Virus record (IMG/VR): IMGVR_UViG_3300045988_121005
Source: a virus
Reading direction: 5' to 3' (one strand)
Length of the DNA: 64,000 nucleotides
In this document: in pieces, positions 1,695 to 54,820 of the stretch
How positions within the stretch are numbered: the first letter of the stretch is position 1
Layout of the letters: every line of letters starts with the position of its first letter
Notes under the pieces: model-generated
Seen by the model: the letters and a program-made list of their open reading frames with translations, nothing else
The model's database searches: none
What the model was told of the DNA's origin: nothing
Program-made: the position numbers and the translations under genes

Positions 1695-2450
1695 TTGAAA
1701 CAAATCATGGGATTAGACGATTTTAAAAAAGATGTAATTAGAGTGATGACAAAAGAAGAGTTCGAATCAGCAATCAACGAAGATATTAAATTCGTTGAAG
1801 GAATTAAGCATTTTTTTAAACATGATGATGCTACGAGGGTAATGGAACACGTAAAGTCCGTGTTAGAAGCATCAGTGGACTACTGCTATCCGAATCATCC
1901 TGAACCTAAAGCAGAACCTGGAGACATGGGAGAGGTTTCTGATGGATACCATACTTTCAATGAATTGTATCGGTACCGCATGTTGTATAACGCTGCCTTC
2001 TTTAATCTATTAGCCAGAAATGGACAGGTTGAAGTTTGCAAATCAAGGAGACACAGCGACGGAGAAAAATGCTTCGGTTCTGATGATTGGTTTATTGTGA
2101 TGGCGATCCTACCTACCGGTCAGGTATCTAATCACTATGAAAGCAAATACTGGGATTTGTTTGATGTTCCTGAAAGAGAAACCGCTTTCGAATACGATGG
2201 CCATACACCAAATGAAGCTGCCGACAGACTTAAAAAGTATCTCAAACTGCCTCGTCGTGGCATGACATTCGAACAGGCTTTAGAACGGCTTAAATTAGGT
2301 CGTAAGATAAAAAGAATCGATTGGGGTAAAAAGTATATCTGTATGTTTGACGTAAATATATTGATGGTAGATACAGGTCAAAAAGTAGCATCAAATTGGA
2401 ATCCAACCGAACATGATATTATGTCTAATGACTGGGAGATTGCGGGATGA
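1695..2450 (+). CDS. Two-domain protein with an unknown N-terminal domain and a C-terminal DUF2829 (Tad2-like) domain.
   Basis: C-terminus reads MTFEQALERLKLGRKIKRIDWGKKYI...DIMSNDWEI. This matches the DUF2829 pattern MxFxEAL..LK.GKKI.R..W...DxxAxDWEi and is paralogous to ORF 61243..61587. Confidence 0.65.
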   Translation: MKQIMGLDDFKKDVIRVMTKEEFESAINEDIKFVEGIKHFFKHDDATRVMEHVKSVLEASVDYCYPNHPEPKAEPGDMGEVSDGYHTFNELYRYRMLYNAAFFNLLARNGQVEVCKSRRHSDGEKCFGSDDWFIVMAILPTGQVSNHYESKYWDLFDVPERETAFEYDGHTPNEAADRLKKYLKLPRRGMTFEQALERLKLGRKIKRIDWGKKYICMFDVNILMVDTGQKVASNWNPTEHDIMSNDWEIAG

Positions 2451-14315: not shown

Positions 14316-14624
14316 TTATTCTACTTTTTTGATTTCACTCAAATCGCCTTCATACACCAAATAAGATCCTCTTCCAGGTCTTCCTTCTTTATTAACTTCC
14401 TGGATTGTAAATATAACTGTTCCAGTACTCATGATTTGAACGCTCTTGAAGAAACCAACAAGAGGTACTTTCGAACGTTTGTAAAGAACGTTCACTTTAT
14501 CTCCCTTCTTGAATCCATAAACAGAATCGAAATATTCCTTTTTAATTCTTTCAATATTACTTCTATGTTTGTTCATTGCATCAAGCTCTGTGTCTAACAG
14601 TTGAATCATTTGTTCTTTTGTCAT
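14316..14624 (-). CDS. Hypothetical protein (102 aa).
   Basis: ORF; coupled to its neighbours. Confidence 0.5.
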   Translation of the reverse strand: MTKEQMIQLLDTELDAMNKHRSNIERIKKEYFDSVYGFKKGDKVNVLYKRSKVPLVGFFKSVQIMSTGTVIFTIQEVNKEGRPGRGSYLVYEGDLSEIKKVE

Positions 14625-15178
14625 TTCTTTTCCTCCTTATTTAATGGTATTAATCCTTTCCCGTGCTTATCATACCACAGCATAGCTATACAATTCCATG
14701 CACATTGTGCAAGATGAAAAGCTCCTGTATCTGAGTCTATTCTTTCCCCTTTCATGTATTCCATTAGGTGTCTGGCAGCCGCAGCACGATACCGTTCAAA
14801 CCCATTGTCAAGGTTCTGCCATTTATTGGGTCCGTACTTCTTGGCGCCAGCATGATAGACTCTTACAATGTCTTCAATCTCCTCCATTGGAAGCAAGTCC
14901 CATCGTAGTTTGTCGTCTATGATGTCATTCTTCACCGATTTATTTTCTACGGGGTCTTTGGAAAGAATAATATCCATAATATCCGTTTCTATGACGAACG
15001 TCTCCCCATTACAACAAACCTCAGCATATTTATCATTTACTTCTATGTCTGATACTGCCTCCGCTATAGCTCCTTTGGCTATTTTAAATTCTGCACTGAT
15101 TATATCATCTTTCAATATGCGAAAAATAGATCCTTTTGGATAAAGGATATTTTTAGTGTTATCATCCATCTTTTCCAT
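14621..15178 (-). CDS. Hypothetical protein; possibly nucleotide-binding.
   Basis: Conserved-looking C-terminal block VYHAGAKKYGPNKWQN...DSDTGAFHLAQCAWN. No confident family assignment. Confidence 0.55.
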   Translation of the reverse strand: MEKMDDNTKNILYPKGSIFRILKDDIISAEFKIAKGAIAEAVSDIEVNDKYAEVCCNGETFVIETDIMDIILSKDPVENKSVKNDIIDDKLRWDLLPMEEIEDIVRVYHAGAKKYGPNKWQNLDNGFERYRAAAARHLMEYMKGERIDSDTGAFHLAQCAWNCIAMLWYDKHGKGLIPLNKEEKK

Positions 15179-33806: not shown

Positions 33807-34553
33807 TTAGTTGTTAGATAAAAGCAAAATCGGTTCATTTGACTCCGCAATTGCTTTTATTTGTTCTGGATTGATAAAACTCTTGACTTGTTCACTTATC
33901 TCACAAATAGATTTGATCATATCAACGAATAATTTTGAGGTGCATTCGTTGCATTCCACTTCCATTACCGGCTTATATCGATTGTATGATATGCATGTTA
34001 CATAATTCAGCCAGTGCGCATAAGTTCCTTTTTCTGTATTTAACCTGCCGTATTCTACTTTTGTCTCTCCATTACCATATTCAATTACTCTTTTTAGAAA
34101 TGGTTTTGCATAAACACTAAAACCGAAAGGTTGGGTGTTTAAGGCATCTAAACGGGAAGTTCCATCCCTCCATTTTCCATTCTCATCATTTCCTGTCCAT
34201 TCCTTAGAGGGGTTAGGGACAATATTTCCGTTTTTGTCATAGGAAAACATGCAATTCGTTTCCAGTTGATACTTAATAACAGGCACTTCTTCTACTATTT
34301 TATAACTTAAACATCTCTTCAGAACTTCCCTGATTTGACTTTCCAAATCAGAAAGTGCTATACTATTGAAATATCCTTCGTTGCCTAATCTGTTTGTAGG
34401 TAATTTGATCCCATAAGAATGAATCTTATCCACATCTTCTTTTGACAAGGTAGTGGTAAACACTCCTTCTTTGGTGACATTCACTTTAACAGTTACGGAC
34501 AAACTGTTATTAGCGTTCTTTTCCGTTATATTTAGTGTTGTTAATGCTGCCAT
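33807..34553 (-). CDS. Hypothetical protein (248 aa).
   Basis: ORF. Confidence 0.55.
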   Translation of the reverse strand: MAALTTLNITEKNANNSLSVTVKVNVTKEGVFTTTLSKEDVDKIHSYGIKLPTNRLGNEGYFNSIALSDLESQIREVLKRCLSYKIVEEVPVIKYQLETNCMFSYDKNGNIVPNPSKEWTGNDENGKWRDGTSRLDALNTQPFGFSVYAKPFLKRVIEYGNGETKVEYGRLNTEKGTYAHWLNYVTCISYNRYKPVMEVECNECTSKLFVDMIKSICEISEQVKSFINPEQIKAIAESNEPILLLSNN

Positions 34554-44937: not shown

Positions 44938-45115
44938 AATCTTTCGTTTTATTGTCTACAAACTTATCTATATCGTCTCTTATTCTTTTTAGCACTCCGG
45001 CTATAATTTCCGGCATCTCTCCTTCGGTACGGTTCAGAGTTTCTATCACCCCATCAATCCTACCAATTTGACGCCATAAGAAATTGGCGTCTTTCGCATT
45101 AAATTCCCTCATCAT
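44924..45115 (-). CDS. Hypothetical protein (63 aa).
   Basis: ORF. Confidence 0.35.
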   Translation of the reverse strand: MMREFNAKDANFLWRQIGRIDGVIETLNRTEGEMPEIIAGVLKRIRDDIDKFVDNKTKDYENI

Positions 45116-45347
45116 GTCTTATTTTACAGTAAACAACTTGCTTTTTTAAGCACCAGTCTTGCGATTCTGAGAGTGAACACCGTTCGGAGTTGTTAAAAAA
45201 TATACAATCTTTGCAGAACATAAGAGGATCTTCGTCGTCACCAACTACTTTGACATCATACTCTATACCATACAATTTTAATCTAAATACATCTCCTGTT
45301 TTTTTAGAAGACAAATCCATGTTCGGACCGAATGTTATTACTTCCAT
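45099..45347 (-). CDS. Small Cys-rich protein (paralogue family).
   Basis: CKDCIF motif; the N-terminus resembles that of ORF 46530..46790. Confidence 0.5.
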   Translation of the reverse strand: MEVITFGPNMDLSSKKTGDVFRLKLYGIEYDVKVVGDDEDPLMFCKDCIFFNNSERCSLSESQDWCLKKQVVYCKIRHDEGI

Positions 45348-45365
45348 ATAATTATGTTTTATTGT

Positions 45366-45452
45366 TTGTGAGATGCCCAGAATCGAACCAGGACCGGCAC
45401 ATACATACCGGCACGCCGCGCCATCCCTCTATGATACACAAATAGACATGCC
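45366..45452 (-). ncRNA. tRNA-like element; a non-canonical or interrupted tRNA.
   Basis: Minus-strand T-arm CCUGG-UUCGAUU-CUGGG, which pairs only in the minus-strand transcript. It is followed by a CAUCUCA acceptor strand. GC-rich island in AT-rich DNA. No full cloverleaf could be folded by hand. Confidence 0.4.
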
Positions 45453-45520
45453 TATTCTCACGAACCGACATGCCAAAACCCAAAACTTAATTTGATGAAT
45501 AAAATAGATTAACAAAAATA

Positions 45521-45835
45521 CTATTCTAACTCTTTTATAATATCTTTCACAATATTCAGCCTTACCTCCTTCGTTTCTGGACTAATGCAACCAAACCACC
45601 CATAAAACGTTCTTGTTTCCTCTGGTTCTGTGGCCATACTTATCTTCTCCTCCAATTCCGGGAAATATATTCTCACCATTTCGTCTGAACGAAACCCATA
45701 GATATTTTTATGTTTTTTGAAATACATAAACACTACATTTCTTAACGCAACACATATGTATTCCCCATCCTCTTGCCTATCAATCATCTCATATACCTTT
45801 TTCCATATGAATAATCGCTCTTCTTTTGTAAACAT
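45521..45835 (-). CDS. Hypothetical protein (104 aa).
   Basis: ORF. Confidence 0.5.
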   Translation of the reverse strand: MFTKEERLFIWKKVYEMIDRQEDGEYICVALRNVVFMYFKKHKNIYGFRSDEMVRIYFPELEEKISMATEPEETRTFYGWFGCISPETKEVRLNIVKDIIKELE

Positions 45836-45850
45836 ATCTCTCTTCGTTTT

Positions 45851-46192
45851 TTATAGTATTATTAGACTGTATGCAGACTTTTCCATGTACACAATATTAT
45901 GCTCCTGTCCAAACATTTTCTTTGCTGCCTCTTTCTTTATCGCACAATATCTTCCTGTGCGATACGGATTCTTTTGATCTGAGCCATCTTCGACTTCGAT
46001 AATAAAACAACCTCCTTCGTCTATTATCTTTTTGCAATTGTCACATACTTCGCCCGTGCATATATGATGCGGCGCCTGCCCTTTAATCCCATTTCCTAAT
46101 AAAGCAATCCCCATCTCTTCACCGCATACTATACATATTTCTATGGATGGATTAACTCCATACTCTGGGTGTAATACAATTCCGTCTTTCAT
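45851..46192 (-). CDS. Hypothetical Cys-rich protein; start trimmed to MKDGIVL.
   Basis: Strong RBS (AAGGAGGAAAG) precedes the ATG at 46192. The N-terminal extension of the ORF-track entry overlaps the tRNA-like element. Confidence 0.5.
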   Translation of the reverse strand: MKDGIVLHPEYGVNPSIEICIVCGEEMGIALLGNGIKGQAPHHICTGEVCDNCKKIIDEGGCFIIEVEDGSDQKNPYRTGRYCAIKKEAAKKMFGQEHNIVYMEKSAYSLIIL

Positions 46193-46220
46193 TTTTCTTT
46201 CCTCCTTTATTTTTAATATT

Positions 46221-46292
46221 GTGTGAGATCGCCGGAATCGAACCAGCCTACTGCACCATGAATCCCATAAAGCAAATGCTCCGATCTTCGCA
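46221..46292 (-). ncRNA. tRNA-like element.
   Basis: T-arm GCUGG-UUCGAUU-CCGGC. It is compensatory only on the minus strand. It lacks a clean acceptor and D-arm. Confidence 0.4.
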
Positions 46293-46529
46293 GACGGGAG
46301 CACTCTGTCTAAAGCATAAGAAAATTAATGAAGAAAATTCTTCTCACGCCATAGCGTCTAAAATAGATATCAATACCATTTCAATAACGAGCATGATAGA
46401 AAATATCTTAAATGCCTTTTTCATATCGCTATCTCCTCCTTTTTATTTTCACGTTCCACAATAAACTATTCCGGCTCTGCTTTGACCTACGTTCCACCTA
46501 CAACCGCAGGCCTTAGCCCAAGGCGCCGC

Positions 46530-46790
46530 CTACTCCCCCTCTATGGCAGCCTGTTCGTACCTACAAATCCGGTCTCCATCTACACAACTAACACTACGCG
46601 ATAACAAACATTTATCCTTATAACAATCATAAAAAATACACCTCTCACAACCGTAATCCTTAACGTCTACACAGCTAACTACCTTAGCATATACTATACC
46701 ATCACTGCCTTCTATTCCTTTCACCCCAAAAATAGAACCTTCTCCCTCCTTACTCAAATCTAAGTCAGGCGCAAAGTCATATACGTTCAT
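46530..46790 (-). CDS. Small Cys-rich protein (paralogue family).
   Basis: CERCIF motif. Confidence 0.5.
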   Translation of the reverse strand: MNVYDFAPDLDLSKEGEGSIFGVKGIEGSDGIVYAKVVSCVDVKDYGCERCIFYDCYKDKCLLSRSVSCVDGDRICRYEQAAIEGE

Positions 46791-46861
46791 GTTGTTTATG
46801 TTTTAATTGTTATACATTCCGATTACTACTAATCTATAGAATATAGTTTTCAACTCTCAAC

Positions 46862-47029
46862 CTATTGAATTTTGTAGAATAAACTCACATTATGCCGTTT
46901 TAAAGCACTGTAAGTCTTAATTTTGTTGGAAAACCATACATAATGCTGTTTTAAAACGCTGATCTGTTGAATTTTGTTGGAAGGAAGTTGAATTTTGTTG
47001 GAAGGAAGTTGAATTTTGTTGGAAGGAAG
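46862..47029. repeat. Direct repeats: 3 perfect tandem copies of the 21-bp unit TTGAATTTTGTTGGAAGGAAG, plus degenerate upstream copies. Followed by a C-rich tract (47030-47060).
   Basis: Seen directly in the sequence. Lies in an ORF-free region of about 1 kb. Confidence 0.8.
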
Positions 47030-47721
47030 TGCCCTCCCTCCCCCCCTCTCCAACCCCGGCTAATCCTCCGACTTTCTGCATAGAACCTGCGCTCTCGGCC
47101 TCACTACAGGCATACGGAGAGCGCTACAAGCTTATACTATGGCATGGGATATGGGGTGTTTAGAGATAATATCATTCCATAGAGAGAATAGAGAGCCTTC
47201 AGCCCACGCCCTACCGTCTGCTCCTCCTATCAAGATAGATATTCAAACCTATAATCAAAGCCAAAAACAAAAAGCAAAAGACCATTACAACATTATACTG
47301 ATCCGCTCCGTACTCCAACATAGAACGAATACCAACCGACAGAAAATAAAGATCAGCGACTAATAAAAACCACCACATAAAACAAAAAATTTACAATAAG
47401 TATGTCCGAAAATACGGGTATTATAAAACATAACTAATTGATAATCAGACATACCTTATTTTTAAGAAAAATACAATAAGCCTAATTTTCAATCCATAGA
47501 GACGAAAAAGGCGGCATCCGGCACCATATTTTGGGTCAGAAAACCGCCTACAGTTTCGTTTTAGACCAATTTTAACGACAATATATAGACAAAATACCGG
47601 CATTATATCCAAACAGCCTTATTTTTGTTTCGATTTGAACCAATATACGCATTCCTACCTTGTTTGTCGTCGTGTTCACTCTCAGAATATCTTACCCTTA
47701 AATAGAAAGAGTAGGATACGA

Positions 47722-47756
47722 AAATAGGGCTGCTCCGATATTCGGAACAACCCTAT
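47722..47756 (-). terminator. Stem-loop or terminator downstream of the minus-strand ORF 47763..47969.
   Basis: AATAGGG...CCCTATT stem with an inner TCCGATATTCGGA palindrome. Confidence 0.4.
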
Positions 47757-47762
47757 TCCTGT

Positions 47763-47969
47763 TTAAATACTGTTTATGTTCTCCTTCACGTATGTTCGTG
47801 ATGTATGGACTTTACGTTTGCATTTGTCCTTTCCTGTATCGGCATGATACGCTTCTTTGAGATCACGATACAACATAAATTCACGATACGCTCTTTTCCG
47901 CTTTTCTTTAGCTTCTTTCCTGGACAGACCGCGGACGTCTACCATATGAGATTTAAATTTCCTTTCCAT
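47763..47969 (-). CDS. Highly basic small protein (68 aa).
   Basis: K/R-rich ORF. Confidence 0.4.
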   Translation of the reverse strand: MERKFKSHMVDVRGLSRKEAKEKRKRAYREFMLYRDLKEAYHADTGKDKCKRKVHTSRTYVKENINSI

Positions 47970-48186
47970 TTTCTTTATGCTTTAATTATGATTAACCCCA
48001 GCGGTTAAGTGCTTCAATATAGAAACCCTCCGCCTCTTTGTACTCACTTTCGCTTAATGTTTCCACCGTATCTATGTAGTTACGCAATGTTATTTTTACG
48101 CAACTGTTTTTAGATTTATTGAACGCTTCAGTTAAAGCGTTAATCATTGCTTTCTTTTCCATGCTATTATATTATTTATAATTTAG

Positions 48187-48250
48187 AGGTTGCTCTGGAA
48201 TCGAACCAGACACGCATTCCTATTCTATACGAATTTTATGCTACAACCAA
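48187..48250 (-). ncRNA. tRNA-like element.
   Basis: Perfect T-arm UCUGG-UUCGAUU-CCAGA followed by an AGCAACC acceptor strand that pairs with an upstream GGUUGUA. At about 62 nt it is too short for a canonical tRNA. Confidence 0.4.
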
Positions 48251-48746
48251 CAGCCCGTAATTAGTACGTAGTTCTTGTGTACAGGCCCGTACTATGTTGT
48301 TATTATATTTTCCGTCTGCTACACAATTTAGCCACAAATAAAGGCGATTGTGTCCTTGCGTTTTGATACGGCACGTCCCTACATGGTAGGCTACATGCTT
48401 GTACCCTGTAATTTAATCTACAGCCTTGTTCTATTTTTCGTGTAAGCAAGTAAGACACGTTTCGATCTGGAGATAAACCTCATACAACGGCATGTTTTCC
48501 AAACTGTAATCACATACCTAACATAAATCACGCCTATTCGGGTGATTCATGCAGTAATACCAGCCCTTTAATTGCCAACGGCAAGGGCAACGGTATATCT
48601 ATCTCCAATATGTAAAATAACTCTCTGCTTGTCAGCTTCAGTCTAAAGCATACGCGGGACGTGCACCCACTGACAATGGCGTACAGGCGCGTTTTAAGGC
48701 ACGCGTAAAACCTTTGGAGAGCTTAACGGCGCTCTCCATGCCTTTG

Positions 48747-49349
48747 TTACTGCTGGTTGCTTTCATGTGCGAGGTATTCACTTACACACTTTGCCACAGT
48801 GCGAATAGAATAAGATTTGATCTTAACAGCCACATAAGTAGATTTGTACTCGTCGGTTTCTTTTATCAACCATTTAGTACTTTTTTTGGTCTCCAATGAT
48901 TCGGCAGTAGTAAAACCAAATGCTTTATATTCGCTACCGTAAACCACATTCTCGGCGCACCAATCAGCCGTTTTGGCTTCAATTCCTTTTTCTTTGTCTG
49001 CATTGGTATCTTTATACACTTTAGAGTATAAAGTAAACTTAACAAAAGTATTATCCACTTTAGGTAACATCTGACTACATACTGCCACCAGATTTTTTTT
49101 ATCTTTGGCGATGGCTGCTACCTTTACGGCGTATTCTGCCGGTATTTCCAAAGCCTTGCAAATAGCCTTAAGATCAGCTCCATTAGCAAATAGAGCGTTG
49201 TACAGTTTAACAGCACCTACCAAATTTGCAGCATTTTCTTTAATAACAGCATTCTGTAGTTTGTTTACATTTTTTTTCGTAATCATATCCAATATATTTT
49301 TAATTGTTAAACAAATGATATTCAATTTAATGACCCACAACGCAGGCAA
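48747..49349 (-). CDS. Hypothetical Lys/Ala-rich protein; the start is probably the internal MITKKN.
   Basis: ORF with a hairpin (GGAGAGC...GCTCTCC) just downstream of its stop. Confidence 0.5.
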   Translation of the reverse strand: MPALWVIKLNIICLTIKNILDMITKKNVNKLQNAVIKENAANLVGAVKLYNALFANGADLKAICKALEIPAEYAVKVAAIAKDKKNLVAVCSQMLPKVDNTFVKFTLYSKVYKDTNADKEKGIEAKTADWCAENVVYGSEYKAFGFTTAESLETKKSTKWLIKETDEYKSTYVAVKIKSYSIRTVAKCVSEYLAHESNQQ

Positions 49350-49683
49350 TTACAGATACATATATAATTCACCCAACGGGTACACTATATAGATTCACTA
49401 TGTTAACTCGTAATCTCTCTCGATCACGACGCAAATATACGACATTTGTCAATACTACAAATATATATGCTATCTTTTTTTTGTTAATTTGTATTAATTT
49501 CGATTCTATTATCTGATTATCAACAAGTTGTAGAACACACGAGAGCAGTATTATACGCGTACATTAATATGTAGGATATATGCTTATTTAAGTGGCTTAT
49601 AATCAATAGGTTATAATAATACATTGATTATCAATAATTTAAATAAGTGATTGATAATCAGACAGTTTGTAGGTTTAAGGTAA

Positions 49684-49735
49684 AAACGCGTTTACGGTTT
49701 TCAAGCGAAGGGGGTGTGGGGGAGAAAACGCGTTT
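49684..49735. promoter_or_regulatory. Two copies of the 10-bp perfect palindrome AAACGCGTTT, 42 bp apart.
   Basis: Copies at 49684-49693 and 49726-49735. Candidate dimeric regulator-binding sites. Confidence 0.4.
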
Positions 49736-49773
49736 CGGGGGCGGGAGGTTCGTGATAGGTACCCCCTCTCTCC

Positions 49774-49956
49774 CATCACATAAACATCTTTCATATCCCT
49801 CATCACATAAACATCTTTCATATCCCTCATCACATAAACATCTTTCATATCCCTCATCACATAAACATCTTTCTCATATCCCTCATCACATAAACATCTT
49901 TCTCATATCTCTCCCATCACATAAACATCTTTCATATCCCTCATCACATAAAAGTA
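49774..49956. repeat. Tandem direct repeat of about 27 bp (CATCACATAAACATCTTTCATATCCCT), roughly 6.5 copies. Iteron-like.
   Basis: Seen directly. Units are near-identical; some carry a 1-nt insertion. Confidence 0.85.
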
Positions 49957-50001: not shown

Positions 50002-50394
50002 TTATTTACTTTCCCATATTAGTTTATCTTCGGCTATTCCGATCTTTACTTCCTCGCACTTTCTTCCTATCCATCCATTGAGATACGAGAATGGTTCTGA
50101 GTTTTTTACTTCTTCTCCTAAGAAATTAAAAGCTTCAGTAGAAACATGGGATGCTTCATGGCGAACTGTTTCAAAATCAATTATTTTCTTATTAATAAAC
50201 CATATCAAAAATCCCGTATTAGGATTTAATTTACACCCTCCGTATGGAACGGATACAGTTACAGCCTTGCTATTATCTACGTAACTAAAATCGTTATTGA
50301 AACATTCTACCATGCCAGATACGTCTTTTCCTACGTATATCCACAGATTAAAAGGATAGACTTCCGGATAGAACTGATATAATTCACGCTTCAT
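50002..50394 (-). CDS. Small protein with an HExxH motif; putative zinc metallopeptidase-like.
   Basis: VRHEASHV. Last gene of a four-gene coupled operon. Confidence 0.4.
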   Translation of the reverse strand: MKRELYQFYPEVYPFNLWIYVGKDVSGMVECFNNDFSYVDNSKAVTVSVPYGGCKLNPNTGFLIWFINKKIIDFETVRHEASHVSTEAFNFLGEEVKNSEPFSYLNGWIGRKCEEVKIGIAEDKLIWESK

Positions 50395-51347
50395 TTCGAT
50401 AAAAGTTTTTTACTTTCAAGGAAGTCCTTAAACTGATCACTTGATACGTCTATAACGAATCCAGCAGCACCAGCATGTCCTCCACCACCGAATCTTTTAC
50501 TTACCTCACAGCAATCTACGCTGTCTTCTACGCATTCATAAAGAGAGAACCGTACTTTACCACCTGGCATGATACAAAATGGCATAAGGGCTTTAATTTT
50601 TCTACCGTCTAACCAGTCTCGTGTAAGAGAATCAAATACCTTAGAACTAAATTCGGTGGTATTCATCGCCACGACCTTCACCTCATCAACGTACGCTTCG
50701 AACGAATACGCACTTACCTCTTGTTCGTTTTTACCAGCCATGTAGTTAATTATAGCACGTCCTTCTTTAGCGAGATCATAAAAAATAAGATCAATTTCAT
50801 TGTCCTTCATATCTTCTTTAAAGTGATCATACAAATACGACAATGCTATTAATACATTGAGTCTTATTTTTGATCTCAAGGCATACTGGATAGCTACTAC
50901 CGTATCCCAGCCTAAACCGGATTCTTTATTCCACACATCGTAGTCTGACAGACACCGGACGATCGCCGGCACCTTCCCCATCAGCAGGTCCGAAGCCAGA
51001 GCGCACGCACCGACGCCGACTCTCCTAAGCCCTGGAACAGTGAATCCCCATGTCTTACTATCTTCGATAATTCCCTTATGATGATCTATCCACATCAGGC
51101 TCTTTCCTTCATCAAGCCACTTTTTGAAAACCGTTTTAGAATCGGCACCGAAAGACACATCAAGAACGTAAACAACATCTAAGTCACTCACCTTGCTGGT
51201 AACTTTCTTAACATCATCTTCATACGAATACGGGATATAAATAACATCCTTGTTTTTACTGTTTTCGTACATGGTTGCGATGGCTGCCGACACAACGCCA
51301 TCTAAATCTGATTTATGATAAACTATCGCCGTTTTTTTTACTTTCAT
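50391..51347 (-). CDS. DHH-DHHA1 family phosphoesterase (NrnA/RecJ-like).
   Basis: N-terminal HKSDLDGVVSA (DHH) and C-terminal GGGGHAGAAGF (DHHA1 GGGH). Confidence 0.65.
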   Translation of the reverse strand: MKVKKTAIVYHKSDLDGVVSAAIATMYENSKNKDVIYIPYSYEDDVKKVTSKVSDLDVVYVLDVSFGADSKTVFKKWLDEGKSLMWIDHHKGIIEDSKTWGFTVPGLRRVGVGACALASDLLMGKVPAIVRCLSDYDVWNKESGLGWDTVVAIQYALRSKIRLNVLIALSYLYDHFKEDMKDNEIDLIFYDLAKEGRAIINYMAGKNEQEVSAYSFEAYVDEVKVVAMNTTEFSSKVFDSLTRDWLDGRKIKALMPFCIMPGGKVRFSLYECVEDSVDCCEVSKRFGGGGHAGAAGFVIDVSSDQFKDFLESKKLLSK

Positions 51348-52188
51348 AATATAAGCTTGTGAATGTAATATTATTGTCTCCTTTATCTATTCTTATAATA
51401 TCGCTGTATCCTCTATAATCCTGATCTTTTTTAATACGAACCTTCAAAGTAGCTAAAGGAGGTTTACAGACAGGAGGAGTGTCAAACTCATCACTATAAA
51501 TATCTTGCAATTCAATTTTTATATTAAGATCAACTCCATATGGATTTTCAAGGATATATATATGATCGTTGTTTAGAATAACTATTCCTTCACTTGTATG
51601 TTCTTTGGACAATACATAATTTAAATCAAGATCTTTACCAACAAACTGAATAACATCCATATAGTCAATGCCGGCATTCTCAGCACATACCTTATCCGAA
51701 TCAGAGAACTGCCCTGGCAGACCACTGGCGCTTCCTACCATCAGCGTCATTGTCTCAATATCTTTATATGTTATACCATCCATCATCAACCTACAAGCAC
51801 CAAGTGCCTTATATACCATACCGGGATTAGGCTTCATCATCGGATCATATTCATCAATTGAAAAACACTCATAATGACCATACACTACTCCTCTTATACC
51901 TCTTTTCACTGCAAGATCATGAACGCATCTAAGGACATAATTTATCTTCGCATCAATATCTTCATCGGAAACAAACCCGACACCCACATCACATTGGTTG
52001 CTTATTATACCAAAGTATTTAACGCCATTTTGCTCCATAAGATCAAGTGCCCTATTCACGACATCTTGCTTAATCTTCATATCAGTAAGATCTTTTGCAT
52101 AAAGACCTCCAGATATGGTTTCAACCAACGTCCCGTCAAAATCAAATAGTAGTATTCTTTTGTTTTTAATATACAAATCTTTCATCAT
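51313..52188 (-). CDS. HAD-superfamily phosphatase (PNKP/HisB-like) with an extra C-terminal domain.
   Basis: Motif I LFDFDGTL, motif II IISNQ, motif III KPNPGM. Confidence 0.65.
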   Translation of the reverse strand: MMKDLYIKNKRILLFDFDGTLVETISGGLYAKDLTDMKIKQDVVNRALDLMEQNGVKYFGIISNQCDVGVGFVSDEDIDAKINYVLRCVHDLAVKRGIRGVVYGHYECFSIDEYDPMMKPNPGMVYKALGACRLMMDGITYKDIETMTLMVGSASGLPGQFSDSDKVCAENAGIDYMDVIQFVGKDLDLNYVLSKEHTSEGIVILNNDHIYILENPYGVDLNIKIELQDIYSDEFDTPPVCKPPLATLKVRIKKDQDYRGYSDIIRIDKGDNNITFTSLYYESKKNGDSLS

Positions 52189-54458: not shown

Positions 54459-54530
54459 GAGGCTTGTGGCGGAATCGAACCGCCCTACGAGGTTTTGCGG
54501 ACCCCTGACTAAACCACTCATCCAACAAGC
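54459..54530 (-). tRNA. tRNA-Cys(GCA): tRNA-Cys (GCA).
   Basis: 72 nt. Acceptor GGCUUGU/ACAAGCC, T-arm GGCGG-UUCGAUU-CCGCC, anticodon loop CCGCAAA. Confidence 0.7.
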
Positions 54531-54533
54531 CAT

Positions 54534-54607
54534 GTAGCCCAACCGGGAGTCGAACCCGGAACTAAAGTTTAGGAAACTTTTGTTATATCCGTTTAACTAC
54601 CAGGCTA
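54534..54607 (-). tRNA. tRNA-Arg(CCT): tRNA-Arg (CCT).
   Basis: T-arm CCGGG-UUCGACU-CCCGG. Anticodon stem AAAGU/ACUUU with loop UUCCUAA. The acceptor stem contains several G-U pairs. Confidence 0.6.
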
Positions 54608-54674
54608 TTTAATGTTTGCTATGTTCACACACCGCAAACACTGAGATAATTAACATTTCCACAAAAACTTATCG

Positions 54675-54745
54675 TTATCCAAGGAGGATTCGAACCTCCG
54701 ATAACAGAACCAAAATCTGTTGTGTTACCACTACACCATTGGACA
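54675..54745 (-). tRNA. tRNA-Gln(TTG): tRNA-Gln (TTG).
   Basis: D-arm GUGU/ACAC, anticodon stem ACAGA/UCUGU with loop UUUUGGU, T-arm GGAGG-UUCGAAU-CCUCC. Confidence 0.75.
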
Positions 54746-54746
54746 G

Positions 54747-54820
54747 TGGTCCCGGAGGGATTTGAACCCACGATCTTGCGGTTATGAGCCGCCTGCTTTC
54801 ACCACTAAGCTACAGGACCT
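54747..54820 (-). tRNA. tRNA-Met(CAT): tRNA-Met (CAT).
   Basis: Acceptor GGUCCUG/CGGGACC, D-arm GCUU/AAGC, anticodon loop CUCAUAA, T-loop UUCAAAU. Confidence 0.75.

What the first reader, a model, noticed from the sequence alone, without database searches (positions are those of the whole stretch)
45366..48250. Three non-canonical tRNA-like elements sharing a GGAATCGAACCAG core.
Three minus-strand elements at 45366, 46221 and 48187 are embedded in GC-rich islands. Each has a textbook T-arm (stem-UUCGAUU-stem). Compensatory pairing works only in the minus-strand transcript (G-U pairs that would be C-A on the other strand). Each is followed by an acceptor 3' strand with a partially complementary upstream partner. 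None folds into a full cloverleaf: the deduced lengths are 62, 67 and about 90 nt. They may be intron-containing or split tRNAs, degenerate tRNAs, or tRNA-derived regulatory RNAs. Their T-arm cores are more similar to one another than to the four canonical tRNAs at 54.5 kb.
Basis: seen in the sequence. Interest (0 to 1): 0.55.

Follow-up and report, generated by a model that had tools for sequence, protein, structure and literature searches.

The report
Conserved tRNA top-half mimics in phage
Three short conserved RNA elements in the early-gene region of a large human-gut (crAss-like) phage copy only the acceptor/T-arm half of a tRNA, so they cannot decode and most likely act as handles for the host's tRNA-processing enzymes, which has not been tested.

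Summary
Three minus-strand elements (core 45370-45427, 46225-46266, 48188-48248) each have a 5-bp T stem with a UUCGAUU loop, directly abutted by a 6-bp acceptor-like stem. The window holds six such T-arm motifs against 0.3 expected by chance.

They are not tRNAs. ARAGORN (with or without introns) and Rfam call nothing. The best tRNA-clan score is 12-14 bits against a threshold of 47, with the D and anticodon arms skipped. A cloverleaf for element 3 fits relatives worse than the minihelix fold (86.9% against 100% paired).

All three recur in about 200 related gut-phage contigs. Substitutions keep pairing, mostly through G-U wobble that works only on the minus strand, plus several double compensatory changes.

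Each element follows a stable hairpin and ends 22-32 nt before an ORF start. In elements 1 and 2 the hairpin is 8 bp, a 1x1 loop, 4 bp and a GNRA tetraloop. Element 3 closes a roughly 490-nt ORF-free region full of covarying hairpins with no Rfam match.

Best reading: tRNA "top-half" mimics cut by RNase P and RNase Z, like plant mitochondrial t-elements or mascRNA. This is inferred, not shown. Main rival: trans-acting tRNA-mimic RNAs, since a close relative encodes Ro60. I class it as a new variant of a known kind.

The parts
45445..45474 (-). Element 1 upstream hairpin P1: GGCAUGUC-G-GUUC-GUGA-GAAU-A-GGCAUGUC (8 bp, 1x1 internal loop, 4 bp, GNRA tetraloop).
   Evidence: Recovered by single-sequence folding. 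In 40 distinct homologues 99.8% of cells are paired, and 5 pairs vary only by wobble-compatible changes. In the divergent clade L332 U.G becomes C-G and the loop changes GUGA to GCGA, so GNRA is kept.
45370..45427 (-). Element 1 tRNA-like core (58 nt). Acceptor-like stem GGGAUG (45422-45427) with CAUCUC (45370-45375). Connector GCGCGGCGU with an invariant GG. Variable hairpin GCCGGU-AUGUAUGU-GCCGGU (45393-45412). T arm CCUGG-UUCGAUU-CUGGG (45376-45392). It is followed by A-CAAAC, then the ATG at 45347 (22-nt gap).
   Evidence: The acceptor keeps pairing through G.U to A-U, G-C to G.U and one G-C to A-U double change (L015). The variable hairpin is cleanly deleted in L039 and L072 while the rest is kept. 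cmscan aligns it to the tRNA-Sec model at 13.8 bits (threshold 47), with the D and anticodon arms skipped.
46275..46304 (-). Element 2 upstream hairpin P1: AGUGCUCC-C-GUCU-GCGA-AGAU-C-GGAGCAUU. It has the same geometry as P1 of element 1 (8 bp, 1x1 loop, 4 bp, GNRA) with an unrelated stem sequence.
   Evidence: 12 pairs, 98.7% paired, 3 pairs with changes on both sides (G-C/A-U, U-A/C-G, C-G/A-U); 0 of 500 shuffles reach the observed value. L332 adds a G-C to A-U change and a GCGA to GUGA loop change.
46225..46266 (-). Element 2 tRNA-like core (42 nt). Acceptor-like stem GGGAUU (46261-46266) with GAUCUC (46225-46230). A 13-nt single-stranded connector CAUGGUGCAGUAG whose CAUGGUG is invariant. 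T arm GCUGG-UUCGAUU-CCGGC (46231-46247). There is no D arm and no anticodon arm. It is followed by A-CACAA, then the ATG at 46192 (32-nt gap).
   Evidence: Variant L061 changes the 3' strand from GAUCUC to AAUUCC and still pairs 6/6 with GGGAUU, while it breaks the alternative long-range GUGAGA pairing.
48188..48248 (-). Element 3 tRNA-like core (61 nt). Acceptor-like stem GGUUGU (48243-48248) with GCAACC (48188-48193). Internal two-tier hairpin GCAU-AAA-AUUC-GUAUA-GAAU-AGGA-AUGC (48214-48241), with an invariant GG in AGGA. T arm UCUGG-UUCGAUU-CCAGA (48194-48210). It is followed by U-CUAAA, then the ATG at 48162 (25-nt gap).
   Evidence: The single-sequence fold equals this model (z = -2.4). 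In 12 distinct homologues 100% of cells are paired, with double changes in the inner hairpin and the T stem. The ARAGORN low-threshold cloverleaf gives 86.9% paired, with its anticodon stem at 66.7%. The partner of GCAACC is not settled by covariation: RNAalifold on the whole region prefers a distal AGGUU.
48250..48290 (-). Stable hairpin that ends 1 nt before the acceptor strand of element 3. It sequesters the GGGCUGU that the low-threshold cloverleaf needs as its acceptor strand.
   Evidence: Alignment A5, columns 459-499: 10+4 pairs, 100% paired, with G.U to A-U in 7 of 18 sequences. L033 adds a U-A to C-G change.
48250..48737 (-). ORF-free, highly structured region directly 5' of element 3 in the minus-strand sense. 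It may be one large RNA or leader whose 3' end is element 3.
   Evidence: The counts cover the whole A5 alignment (window 48180-48745), which includes element 3 itself: 18 homologues, 166 predicted pairs, 98.7% paired, 14 pairs with changes on both sides against 6.0 +/- 1.6 in shuffles (0 of 500) and 1-6 in slid controls. L033 and L332 add further compensatory changes. No Rfam family matches at gathering score or at E<=10. There are only fragmented 33-51 aa ORFs without an ATG start.
45099..45347 (-). 82-aa ORF that starts 22 nt after element 1 (context).
   Evidence: No Pfam or PHROG family matches.
45851..46192 (-). 113-aa ORF (phrog_11852, unknown function) that starts 32 nt after element 2 and has a GGAGG ribosome-binding site (context).
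47992..48162 (-). 56-aa ORF that starts 25 nt after element 3 (context).

Best explanation
What it is (well supported). The three elements are conserved structured RNA modules, transcribed from the minus strand together with small early-type genes of a roughly 150-kb crAss-like human-gut phage. Each consists of a stable hairpin, a 1-18 nt linker, and a mimic of the 'top half' of a tRNA. The mimic is a 6-bp acceptor-like stem stacked directly on a 5-bp T stem with the canonical UUCGAUU loop. It also carries an invariant unpaired GG that could play the role of D-loop G18-G19 at the elbow. The position of the D and anticodon arms holds a 13-nt strand, a dispensable hairpin, or a non-anticodon hairpin, so the elements cannot decode.

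How it most likely works (inferred). The acceptor/T minihelix plus elbow is the part of a tRNA that RNase P, RNase Z and the CCA-adding enzyme recognise. I propose that host RNase P cuts at the 5' side of the acceptor stem. The upstream RNA is then left ending in the protective hairpin. For element 3, the upstream RNA is the ~490-nt structured RNA. RNase Z would cut after the discriminator (A, A, U). No CCA is encoded here, as in the phage's own tRNAs. That cut releases the downstream mRNA 22-32 nt ahead of its start codon, plus a small tRNA-like RNA of 43-62 nt. This would be tRNA-style punctuation of early transcripts, as with plant mitochondrial t-elements and MALAT1/mascRNA.
For: Shown:
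- T arm plus abutting acceptor stem at all three sites, far above chance.
- No tRNA call by ARAGORN or Rfam. The only weak tRNA-clan alignments skip the D and anticodon arms.
- Pairing retained in relatives: 99.3%, 99.0% and 100% of cells. There are double compensatory changes, and many G-C/G.U/A-U switches that fit only the minus strand.
- The elements are present in every locus that reaches far enough in a set anchored on a neighbouring protein rather than on the elements. The T loop is nearly invariant there.
- The bottom half is free to vary or be deleted while the top half is kept.
- The elements are co-oriented with the genes, intergenic, and 22-32 nt from the next ATG.
- Every element is preceded by a stable hairpin.
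- The phage's canonical tRNAs also lack an encoded CCA and share the trailer UCUAAA with element 3.

From the literature:
- tRNA-like t-elements are described as contributing to mRNA 5' and 3' end formation in plant mitochondria (title of PMC1920247, seen in the listing; the paper was not read; that RNase P and RNase Z carry out the cuts is from my own knowledge).
- A bacterial tRNA-like Y RNA is cut by RNase P and receives CCA in vivo (PMC4201824).
Against: - There are no RNA-end or expression data, so every enzymatic step is inferred.
- The acceptor-like stems are 6 bp. The stack is therefore 11 bp, not the 12 of a tRNA; only element 2 can add a U-A pair to reach 7 bp. [quoted passage not shown]
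- Only three such elements exist in the roughly 151-kb genome of the close relative outside its Ro60 locus, so this is not a genome-wide punctuation system.
- The fixed geometry and GNRA loop of P1 are conserved between paralogues. The unpaired connectors are invariant (CAUGGUG, CGCGGC, AGGA). Both suggest more than a cleavage signal.
- In clade L332 the T stem of element 1 carries a C.A mismatch.
- Single-sequence folding z-scores for elements 1 and 2 are unremarkable (-1.0 and -1.3).
Confidence: 0.42

Rival explanations
1. The elements are trans-acting tRNA-mimic small RNAs. The hairpin plus minihelix would be a stable early RNA that binds a tRNA-binding protein. Candidates are the phage's own Ro60 (as a Y-RNA-like partner), a tRNA-modifying or CCA-adding enzyme, or a host defence toxin that targets tRNA acceptor ends. 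The RNA would tether, regulate or decoy that protein.
For: - The P1 geometry (8 bp, 1x1 loop, 4 bp, GNRA) is conserved between paralogues with unrelated stem sequences. The tetraloop stays GNRA while switching between GUGA and GCGA.
- The unpaired connectors are invariant.
- The 92%-identical GenBank relative encodes a TROVE/Ro60 protein (E = 2.6e-14). Beside it lie three tandem Y-RNA-like units that have tRNA-like modules.
- Bacterial and phage Y RNAs mimic tRNA (PMC4201824).
- The window encodes a polynucleotide kinase-phosphatase-like protein and a DHH phosphoesterase.
- The elements lie in the early region next to the putative genome end.
Against: - The elements lack the long 5'/3' closing stem of Y RNAs, the GNCGAA(N)G motif, and the GUGGUGAUGG motif of the Ro60-adjacent units.
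- They lie roughly 75 kb from the Ro60 gene, whereas YrlA genes lie within 4 kb of it.
- No anticodon arm is present, so they cannot be decoys for anticodon nucleases.
- No promoter or terminator of their own could be identified.
Confidence: 0.25
2. The elements are cis-acting 5'-leader structures for the downstream ORFs that work without any tRNA enzyme. They could be a 5' stabiliser, a translational control element, or a processive antitermination RNA. P1 could be a leaky terminator.
For: - Each element ends 22-32 nt before an ATG.
- P1 of element 1 weakly resembles the terminator hairpin of a Bacteroides sRNA (E = 0.69).
- P1 is followed by moderately U-rich sequence.
Against: - This does not explain why a canonical T loop and an abutting acceptor stem are conserved.
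- The terminator scan does not call P1.
- Among other non-canonical tRNA-like sequences in phage contigs, an ORF start within 60 nt is not enriched: 12 of 33 against 27% of control positions.
Confidence: 0.13
3. The elements are decaying tRNA gene duplicates (pseudogenes) with no present function. They would persist only because the relatives are closely related.
For: - Element 3 shares its 5' GGCU(U)GUUGG, its T loop and its 3' trailer CCUCUAAA with the phage tRNA-Cys (best pairwise z = 4.1).
- The relatives are 81-97% identical, so conservation alone is weak evidence.
- One T-stem C.A mismatch is seen in L332.
Against: - Substitutions in the stems are strongly biased towards pair-preserving changes, including double changes.
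- High-frequency variants all keep pairing, and breaking variants are mostly singletons.
- The 5' part of element 3 is not significantly similar to tRNA-Cys on its own (p = 0.26).
- The new internal hairpin of element 3 covaries.
- The elements are retained in all relatives examined.
Confidence: 0.07
4. The elements are intron-containing or split tRNA genes. For example, element 3 could be the 3' half of a tRNA interrupted by the structured region of about 490 nt acting as a group-I-like intron.
For: - RNAalifold pairs a distal AGGUU (about 48709-48713) with the AACCU next to the T arm of element 3. A 4-bp D-stem-like hairpin follows that distal site.
- From my own knowledge, crAss-like phages of this size class are rich in self-splicing introns.
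Against: - No group I or group II intron match appears even at E<=10 with permissive filters.
- The distal helix is invariant, so it has no covariation support, and its terminal pair breaks in L033.
- No anticodon stem-loop can be assembled.
- Element 3 has its own perfect local acceptor partner and a covarying internal hairpin.
- ARAGORN intron mode gives only a spurious call that joins element 2 to element 1.
Confidence: 0.05
5. The elements work at the DNA level, as recombination linkers or attachment-site-like tRNA fragments at module boundaries.
For: - The interval between element 2 and element 1 is a variable cassette of 504 to 2209 nt.
- Sequence similarity between relatives breaks within about 8-12 nt after both elements.
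- L097 and L046 carry deletions that join element 2 to element 1.
Against: - G.U-dependent, strand-specific pairing and compensatory changes indicate selection on an RNA fold.
- Attachment sites would have to match a host tRNA and would not covary.
- Recombination at conserved intergenic elements is an expected side effect of conservation, not evidence of function.
Confidence: 0.05

Closest known systems
Plant mitochondrial t-elements (tRNA-like elements that mark mRNA ends; PMC1920247)
   Same: - Acceptor-stem plus T-arm mimics without decoding capacity.
- They sit between or next to protein-coding genes on the same strand.
- They are proposed or shown to be cut by RNase P and RNase Z to form mRNA 5' and 3' ends.
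   Different: - They occur in organelles, not in a phage.
- There is no sequence relationship.
- Processing is not demonstrated here.
- The elements here have a fixed upstream GNRA hairpin and a 6-bp acceptor stem.
MALAT1/MEN-beta mascRNA-type 3'-end formation (from my own knowledge)
   Same: A tRNA-like module lies at the 3' end of a long structured non-coding RNA. RNase P cleavage there would define the 3' end of the long RNA and release a small tRNA-like RNA. This is analogous to element 3 after the ~490-nt structured region.
   Different: - The known system is eukaryotic and nuclear.
- mascRNA is a near-complete cloverleaf.
- The upstream RNA is protected by a triple helix rather than by a hairpin.
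- Nothing has been tested here.
Bacterial and phage Y RNAs (YrlA) that partner with Ro60/Rsr (PMC4201824)
   Same: - Non-coding RNAs with a tRNA-like module, including a canonical T arm.
- At least one is cut by RNase P and CCA-tailed.
- They occur in phages.
- The close relative of this phage encodes Ro60.
   Different: - YrlA has a long 5'/3' closing stem with a GNCGAA(N)G motif, a D arm, and a permuted order.
- It lies within 4 kb of the Ro60 gene on the same strand.
- None of these features holds for the three elements.
Canonical and class II tRNAs, including tRNA-Sec
   Same: - The T arm and T-loop sequence match, with GGUUCGAUUC identical to the phage tRNA-Cys.
- The acceptor stem abuts the T stem.
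- There is a discriminator base and no encoded CCA, as in the phage's own tRNAs.
- The dispensable hairpin of element 1 sits where a long variable arm would be.
   Different: - There is no anticodon arm and no D arm.
- The acceptor stem is 6 bp.
- Scores are far below the family thresholds.
tmRNA tRNA-like domain
   Same: Both have an acceptor plus T-arm module without an anticodon arm. For element 3, one predicted alternative closes the module with the distant 5' end of a long RNA.
   Different: - There is no G3.U70 pair.
- There is no tag reading frame or resume codon.
- No Rfam tmRNA match is found.
- ARAGORN tmRNA calls appear only at lowered thresholds.
Large phage-associated ornate RNAs found next to tRNA genes (GOLLD, ROOL; from my own knowledge)
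   Same: Both are large, heavily structured non-coding regions in a phage, physically joined to a tRNA-like element.
   Different: No match to either Rfam model is found. The region is shorter (about 490 nt), and it is not established that it is a single RNA.

Membership tests
tRNA (Rfam RF00005 / ARAGORN) | Cloverleaf with D arm, anticodon arm (5-bp stem, 7-nt loop), T arm and 7-bp acceptor stem; score at or above the curated threshold of 29 bits. | tested here: not met
   - ARAGORN default and intron mode make no call.
- Rfam gives no tRNA hit at gathering score or at E<=10 over 3.7 kb.
- Short-range scans give only tRNA-Sec hits of 12.2 and 13.8 bits (threshold 47), with the D and anticodon arms skipped.
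- The element 3 cloverleaf has its anticodon stem paired in 66.7% of cells.
tRNA (Rfam RF00005 / ARAGORN) | T arm (5 bp plus a UUCRANY loop with G53-C61) coaxial with the acceptor stem. | tested here: met
   covariation.
Intron-containing or split tRNA | Two exon halves that assemble into a cloverleaf; a recognisable group I intron or bulge-helix-bulge motif. | tested here: not met
   - ARAGORN -i finds none at default stringency, and the lowered-threshold call is an artefact spanning two ORFs.
- No intron family matches at E<=10.
tmRNA | tRNA-like domain formed by the 5' and 3' ends, with G3.U70, and an internal tag ORF with pseudoknots. | tested here: not met
   - No Rfam tmRNA match.
- ARAGORN -m calls appear only at -ps80 and are implausible.
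- The acceptor stems have G2.U71 (elements 1 and 2) or no G.U at positions 2-3 (element 3).
YrlA / bacterial Y RNA | Long stem formed by the 5' and 3' ends, carrying the Ro60-binding GNCGAA(N)G motif. | tested here: not met
   The motif is absent: element 2 has UGCGAAG in a hairpin loop and element 1 has UUCGUGAG. No closing stem encloses the tRNA-like module.
YrlA / bacterial Y RNA | Encoded within about 4 kb of a TROVE/Ro60 gene on the same strand. | tested here: not met
   In OR575929 the Ro60 gene is at 73.1-74.7 kb on the plus strand. The elements are at about 0.5 kb and about 148.6-149.8 kb on the minus strand.
YrlA / bacterial Y RNA | Binds Ro60 in vivo. | not testable with these tools
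   This needs co-immunoprecipitation.
t-element / mascRNA-type processing signal (functional class) | Acceptor plus T-arm mimic without decoding capacity, co-transcribed with flanking RNA. | tested here: met
   The structure is shown. The elements have the same orientation as the genes and lie between them. Co-transcription itself is inferred.
t-element / mascRNA-type processing signal (functional class) | Cleaved by RNase P at the 5' side and by RNase Z at the 3' side, defining the ends of the flanking RNAs. | not testable with these tools
   No RNA-end data are available. The 6-bp acceptor stem is a caveat (PMC4201824).
GOLLD / ROOL large RNAs (for the region 5' of element 3) | Match to the Rfam covariance model. 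| tested here: not met

The most novel reading that the evidence does not exclude
The elements could be founding members of an undescribed class of early phage RNAs. Each would be a GNRA-capped hairpin joined to a tRNA top-half mimic, and one would form the 3' domain of a structured RNA of about 490 nt. They would act in trans on tRNA-recognising machinery. Possible targets are the phage-encoded Ro60 ribonucleoprotein, CCA-adding or repair enzymes, and host toxins that attack tRNA acceptor ends. In that reading they would not be mere cleavage signals. The many other non-canonical GGGA...UCCC-ACA tRNA-like sequences seen in unrelated phage contigs would then belong to the same wider phenomenon.
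Probability: 0.22. Interest if true: 0.8.

Novelty: new variant of a known kind. Interest (0 to 1): 0.6.

Why it matters
crAss-like phages are among the most abundant viruses of the human gut, and their early regions are almost entirely unannotated. In the GenBank relative these elements are unannotated, and two of the RNA regions carry probably spurious "hypothetical protein" calls.

The work shows that three intergenic stretches encode conserved tRNA-mimicking RNAs. One sits at the end of a large structured RNA. This gives concrete and cheap experimental targets: RNase P and RNase Z cleavage assays, end-mapping in metatranscriptomes, and Ro60 pull-downs.

If the processing model holds, it would be a bacterial-virus counterpart of organellar t-elements and of mascRNA-type 3'-end formation.

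If the trans-acting model holds, it would link phage tRNA mimicry to Ro60 and RNA-repair biology or to anti-defence.

The result also warns that tRNA finders miss a sizeable population of tRNA-like genes in phage metagenomes. ARAGORN left uncalled 62 of the 119 sampled matches (in 120 stretches) to one acceptor/T-arm pattern.

Tried and rejected
1. Long-range acceptor pairing GUGAGA...UCUCAC for elements 1 and 2. Rejected: GUGA is the tetraloop of P1 in element 1; variant L061 breaks the pairing in element 2 while keeping the local stem; and one relative has GUAAUA there.
2. Cloverleaf for element 3. It fits worse than the minihelix.
3. The ARAGORN 'tRNA-Ala with an 809-nt intron' that joins element 2 to element 1. 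This is an artefact.
4. tmRNA, Y RNA, group I intron, GOLLD and ROOL. No Rfam support.
5. Derivation of element 3 from tRNA-Cys. Suggestive only, because the 5' part is not significant on its own.
6. Generalising 'an ORF start follows within 60 nt' to other non-canonical phage tRNA-like sequences. Not enriched.
7. Nucleotide-diversity comparison of the elements against codon positions. Uninformative, because the interval between element 2 and element 1 exists in non-homologous cassette versions that spoil the alignment.
8. The sigma-70 promoter and intrinsic-terminator scan. Nothing usable.
9. The search for distant relatives:
   - The GenBank phage collection holds only one related record.
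   - IMG/VR relatives are all 81-97% identical.
   - A 148-kb relative with a 37%-identical DHH protein has no such element within 10 kb.
   - The bacterial genome scan found only a 3.9-kb fragment of the same phage, binned into a Veillonella MAG.
10. The GenBank annotation 'polyA polymerase / CCA-adding enzyme' for window ORF 33807-34553. It could not be confirmed with Pfam or PHROGs.
11. A paper search for csAssE-Sib. No hits.

Full report
CHECK OF THE OBSERVATION

The motif GGAATCGAACCAG lies on the plus strand at 45379-45391 (one mismatch), 46234-46246 and 48197-48209. On the minus strand each site reads as a 5-bp stem, a UUCGAUU loop and a 5-bp stem.

I wrote a scanner for a T arm (G53, TTCRANN, C61, 5/5 pairs). 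It finds six sites in the 64-kb window, all on the minus strand. Three are canonical tRNAs at 54.5 kb and three are these elements. Randomised sequences give a mean of 0.3 and a maximum of 3.

In all three elements the six bases directly after the T stem have a perfect 6/6 complement 13, 29 or 32 nt upstream of the T stem. A relaxed scan adds nothing convincing elsewhere in the window.

Local GC content is 0.42-0.46 against about 0.3-0.38 in the flanks.

NOT tRNAs

- ARAGORN finds only the four tRNAs at 54459-54819.
- With introns allowed it finds nothing at default stringency. With lowered thresholds it gives poor 62-nt and 71-nt calls, and an artefactual 'tRNA-Ala' whose 809-nt 'intron' is the two ORFs between elements 2 and 1.
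- Rfam 15 gives no hit in 45000-48700 at gathering score or at E<=10.
- When only 91-131 nt are searched, the best tRNA-clan alignments are to the tRNA-Sec model at 12.2 and 13.8 bits (threshold 47). The D-arm and anticodon-arm positions of the model are skipped, and the extra hairpin of element 1 is aligned to the long variable arm.

RELATIVES

The only related GenBank phage is OR575929, 'phage csAssE-Sib'. It is 151 kb, from human gut, about 92% identical, and has crAss-like structural annotation. There the elements are unannotated.

A pattern scan of IMG/VR returned 118 loci from gut-phage contigs of about 80-150 kb.

To avoid circularity I also collected 80 loci anchored on the neighbouring DHH protein. 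Elements 3, 2 and 1 were recovered in 58, 40 and 35 of the 79 scanned loci. I attribute the shortfall to contigs ending before the elements, although this was not checked locus by locus. The T loop is almost invariant there.

A more divergent clade (DHH protein 85% identical, DNA 81-86% identical; L332/L333) keeps all three elements. A distant 148-kb relative (DHH 37% identical) has none within 10 kb.

ANATOMY AND COVARIATION

Element 2 (alignment A2, 32 distinct sequences):
- Hairpin P1 is AGUGCUCC-C-GUCU-GCGA-AGAU-C-GGAGCAUU.
- A 9-nt linker follows.
- The acceptor-like stem is GGGAUU with GAUCUC.
- The connector is the 13-nt strand CAUGGUGCAGUAG.
- The T arm is GCUGG-UUCGAUU-CCGGC.
- Of all cells, 99.3% are paired.
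- Three P1 pairs change on both sides, and 0 of 500 shuffles reach the observed value.
- Slid controls give 35-50% paired.
- Variant L061 changes GAUCUC to AAUUCC and keeps 6/6 pairs with GGGAUU.

Element 1 (alignment A3, 40 distinct sequences):
- Hairpin P1 is GGCAUGUC-G-GUUC-GUGA-GAAU-A-GGCAUGUC.
- The acceptor-like stem is GGGAUG with CAUCUC.
- The connector is GCGCGGCGU.
- The T arm is CCUGG-UUCGAUU-CUGGG.
- Of all cells, 99.0% are paired. There are 20 additional pair types, almost all wobble-compatible single-side transitions.
- One change (G-C to A-U) is a double change in the acceptor stem.
- All high-frequency variants keep pairing.
- A hairpin GCCGGU-AUGUAUGU-GCCGGU sits where a long variable arm would be. 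It is deleted in L039 and L072 without loss of the rest.

Element 3 (alignment A4, 12 distinct sequences):
- The acceptor-like stem is GGUUGU with GCAACC.
- An internal two-tier hairpin follows.
- The T arm is UCUGG-UUCGAUU-CCAGA.
- All cells (100%) are paired, with double changes in the inner hairpin and the T stem.
- The cloverleaf alternative gives 86.9% paired, with its anticodon stem at 66.7%.

In clade L332 the tetraloops of both P1 hairpins swap between GUGA and GCGA, so GNRA is preserved. P1 of element 2 gains a G-C to A-U double change. P1 of element 1 turns a U.G pair into C-G. The T stem of element 1, however, carries a C.A mismatch there.

Folding energies are far better on the minus strand for elements 1 and 2 (-37.5 against -16.7 and -29.0 against -18.4 kcal/mol). 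This reflects the G.U pairs, so the structure belongs to the minus-strand transcript.

Each element keeps an invariant unpaired GG: CAUGGUG, CGCGGC and AGGA. I infer that this could replace D-loop G18-G19 at the elbow.

COMMON ARCHITECTURE AND CONTEXT

All three elements have the same layout: a stable hairpin, a 1-18 nt linker, the acceptor/T minihelix, a discriminator (A, A, U) with no CCA, then 22, 32 or 25 nt before the ATG of a small ORF on the same strand. The flanking ORFs have no informative family matches.

For element 3 the preceding hairpin (48250-48290) uses the GGGCUGU that the cloverleaf would need.

Upstream of it, about 490 nt (to about 48737) are free of ORFs with an ATG start and full of hairpins.

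On the full alignment (window 48180-48745, which includes element 3), 18 homologues give:
- 166 predicted pairs;
- 98.7% of cells paired;
- 14 pairs with changes on both sides, against 6.0 +/- 1.6 in shuffles (0 of 500) and 1-6 in slid controls.

L033 (84% identical) and L332 (81% identical) add more compensatory changes. Many pairs switch between G.U and A-U or G-C at high frequency, which again fits only the minus strand. No Rfam family matches.

The long-range helices of this fold have little or no covariation support. These include a distal AGGUU that could pair with the AACCU next to the T arm of element 3. Whether this is one RNA, and which partner GCAACC uses, therefore remains open.

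MOSAIC JUNCTIONS

The distance between element 2 and element 1 takes discrete values from 504 to 2209 nt, mainly about 854 and about 1249. Similarity between relatives breaks a few bases after each element.
- L097 is a hybrid of element 2 and element 1 recombined inside the T loop.
- L046 joins the tail of element 2 to the downstream flank of element 1.
- L012 lacks P1 of element 1.

I regard this as a consequence of conserved intergenic sequence, not as the function.

WIDER CONTEXT

The window encodes a polynucleotide kinase 3'-phosphatase-like protein (51313-52188) and a DHH phosphoesterase (50391-51347), both next to the tRNA cluster.

In the complete genome of the relative there are six canonical tRNAs, the three elements, and one further non-tRNA T arm at 72.6 kb. 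That T arm lies beside a TROVE/Ro60 gene (E = 2.6e-14). There, three tandem units share a 5' motif (GUGGUGAUGG in two of them, GAUGGUGAGG in the third) followed by ACUUCG; the first has a clear long 5'/3' closing stem around a tRNA-like module, the third a weaker one and the second none in its minimum-free-energy fold. That is Y-RNA-like architecture (definition from PMC4201824).

The three elements under study lack that architecture and motif.

The annotated 'CCA-adding enzyme / polyA polymerase' (window ORF 33807-34553) was not confirmed by Pfam or PHROGs.

A second IMG/VR pattern scan (GGTTCGATTC-N7-TCCCACA) gave 119 matches in the 120 stretches returned. ARAGORN does not of them as tRNA.

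These uncalled hits include a family in L037/L216 that also has a GUGA-capped hairpin before a UGGGACG...CGUCCCA-CAAA minihelix. They also include a family (L205) with a hairpin before GGGAUG...CAUCCC-ACAAA. Non-canonical tRNA-like genes of this style are therefore common in phage metagenomes.

INTERPRETATION

The following are shown:
- the sequence features;
- their excess over chance;
- the failure of tRNA models;
- conservation;
- strand-specific, pair-preserving substitution;
- the common architecture and position.

The function is inferred. Selection acts on the acceptor/T top half and the elbow, while the bottom half is free or even deletable. That top half is the part of a tRNA read by RNase P, RNase Z and the CCA-adding enzyme. 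The modules are co-oriented with the genes, preceded by a hairpin and followed closely by a start codon. The most economical mechanism is therefore tRNA-style punctuation:
- RNase P defines the 3' end of the upstream RNA, which is protected by the hairpin.
- RNase Z frees the downstream mRNA.
- A small tRNA-like RNA is released.

The analogues are plant mitochondrial t-elements (PMC1920247) and mascRNA.

Four points weigh against this:
- the 6-bp acceptor stem (PMC4201824 reports that shorter-stemmed Y RNAs were not cut by RNase P);
- the small number of elements per genome;
- the conserved geometry and GNRA loop of P1;
- the invariant connectors.

These points favour a trans-acting tRNA-mimic RNA, possibly tied to the phage's Ro60 or RNA-repair genes. 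I put the processing model at about 0.42 and the trans-acting model at about 0.25. Other cis roles get about 0.13, and pseudogene, intron and DNA-level readings get 0.05-0.07 each.

NOVELTY AND SCORE

tRNA-like processing signals and tRNA-mimicking non-coding RNAs are known kinds. I could find no described family, in Rfam or in the searched literature, for three things: this particular architecture (GNRA hairpin plus a 6/5 minihelix with no D or anticodon arm), its occurrence in a crAss-like phage early region, and its fusion to a ~490-nt structured RNA.

I class it as a new variant of a known kind, with interest 0.6.

Noticed in passing
window 48250-48737 (minus strand): An ORF-free region of about 490 nt directly 5' of element 3 is densely structured. 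Many hairpins show double compensatory changes among relatives, and there is no Rfam match. It may be a new large phage RNA or a structured leader. The GenBank relative annotates a 95-aa 'hypothetical protein' over it (record 556-843), and that ORF is not conserved in this window.
   Followed up: partly
window 45380-46245; loci L012, L046, L097 and others: The interval between elements 2 and 1 is a swappable gene cassette (504, about 854, about 1249 or 2209 nt). Similarity between relatives breaks a few bases after each element. L097, L046 and L012 carry deletions with junctions in or next to the elements, so these are mosaic boundaries.
   Followed up: partly
window 46860-47130: Three to four tandem copies of about 21 nt (GTTGAATTTTGTTGGAAGGAA) lie next to a GC-rich stretch that contains a covarying hairpin (GCGCUCUC...GAGAGCGC, about 47080-47125, minus strand). 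Many IMG/VR contigs and the GenBank record end within about 46.9-47.7 kb of window coordinates. This could be an origin or a genome terminus.
   Followed up: partly
window 49750-49950: Sliding windows show a GC skew of -0.8 to -1.0, meaning essentially no G on the plus strand over about 150-200 nt. A second cluster of contig ends lies roughly 150-600 nt downstream of the DHH gene (about 49.8-50.2 kb).
   Followed up: no
L337:22560-23020 and 23091-24725 (OR575929 72.5-74.7 kb; outside the window): The close relative encodes a TROVE/Ro60 protein. It is preceded by three tandem units that share a related 5' motif (GUGGUGAUGG in two, GAUGGUGAGG in the third) followed by ACUUCG; a long 5'/3' closing stem around a tRNA-like module is clear in the first, weaker in the third and absent from the second's minimum-free-energy fold. 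Two of the units are annotated as tRNA-Tyr and tRNA-Lys, with C1.A72-type acceptor ends. They look like Y-RNA-like RNAs.
   Followed up: partly
loci L199-L317 (IMG/VR, unrelated phage contigs): Of 119 matches to GGTTCGATTC-N7-TCCCACA (in the 120 stretches returned), ARAGORN does not as tRNA. Many have GGGAxx...xxUCCC-ACA acceptor ends with aberrant or missing D and anticodon arms. Several are preceded by a hairpin, for example the L037/L216 and L205 families.
   Followed up: partly
window 50391-52188 and 33807-34553: RNA-end-healing-type genes lie beside the tRNA cluster: a PNK3P-like protein and a DHH/DHHA1 phosphoesterase. GenBank labels the homologue of ORF 33807-34553 'polyA polymerase / CCA-adding enzyme', but Pfam and PHROGs gave no support for that.
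   Followed up: partly
window 1695-2450 (plus strand): This ORF has a WDGH domain fused to a Tad2-like (Thoeris anti-defence 2) domain. ORF 14621-15178 has a dATP/dGTP diphosphohydrolase N-terminal domain.
   Followed up: no
L001:9356-9514 (OR575929 148558-148716): A 52-aa 'hypothetical protein' CDS in the GenBank relative overlaps element 1. It is probably a spurious call over an RNA element.
   Followed up: no
L320 (NZ_DXLG01000138.1, 3.9 kb): A fragment of the same phage (90.5% identical to window 45788-49798) is binned into a human-gut Veillonella MAG. This is only a weak host hint, and it conflicts with the Bacteroides-flavoured annotations in OR575929.
   Followed up: no
window 54459-54531: The phage tRNA-Cys is called by ARAGORN but does not reach the Rfam tRNA gathering score in the whole-window scan. 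Its homologue in OR575929 scores 47.6 bits.
   Followed up: no
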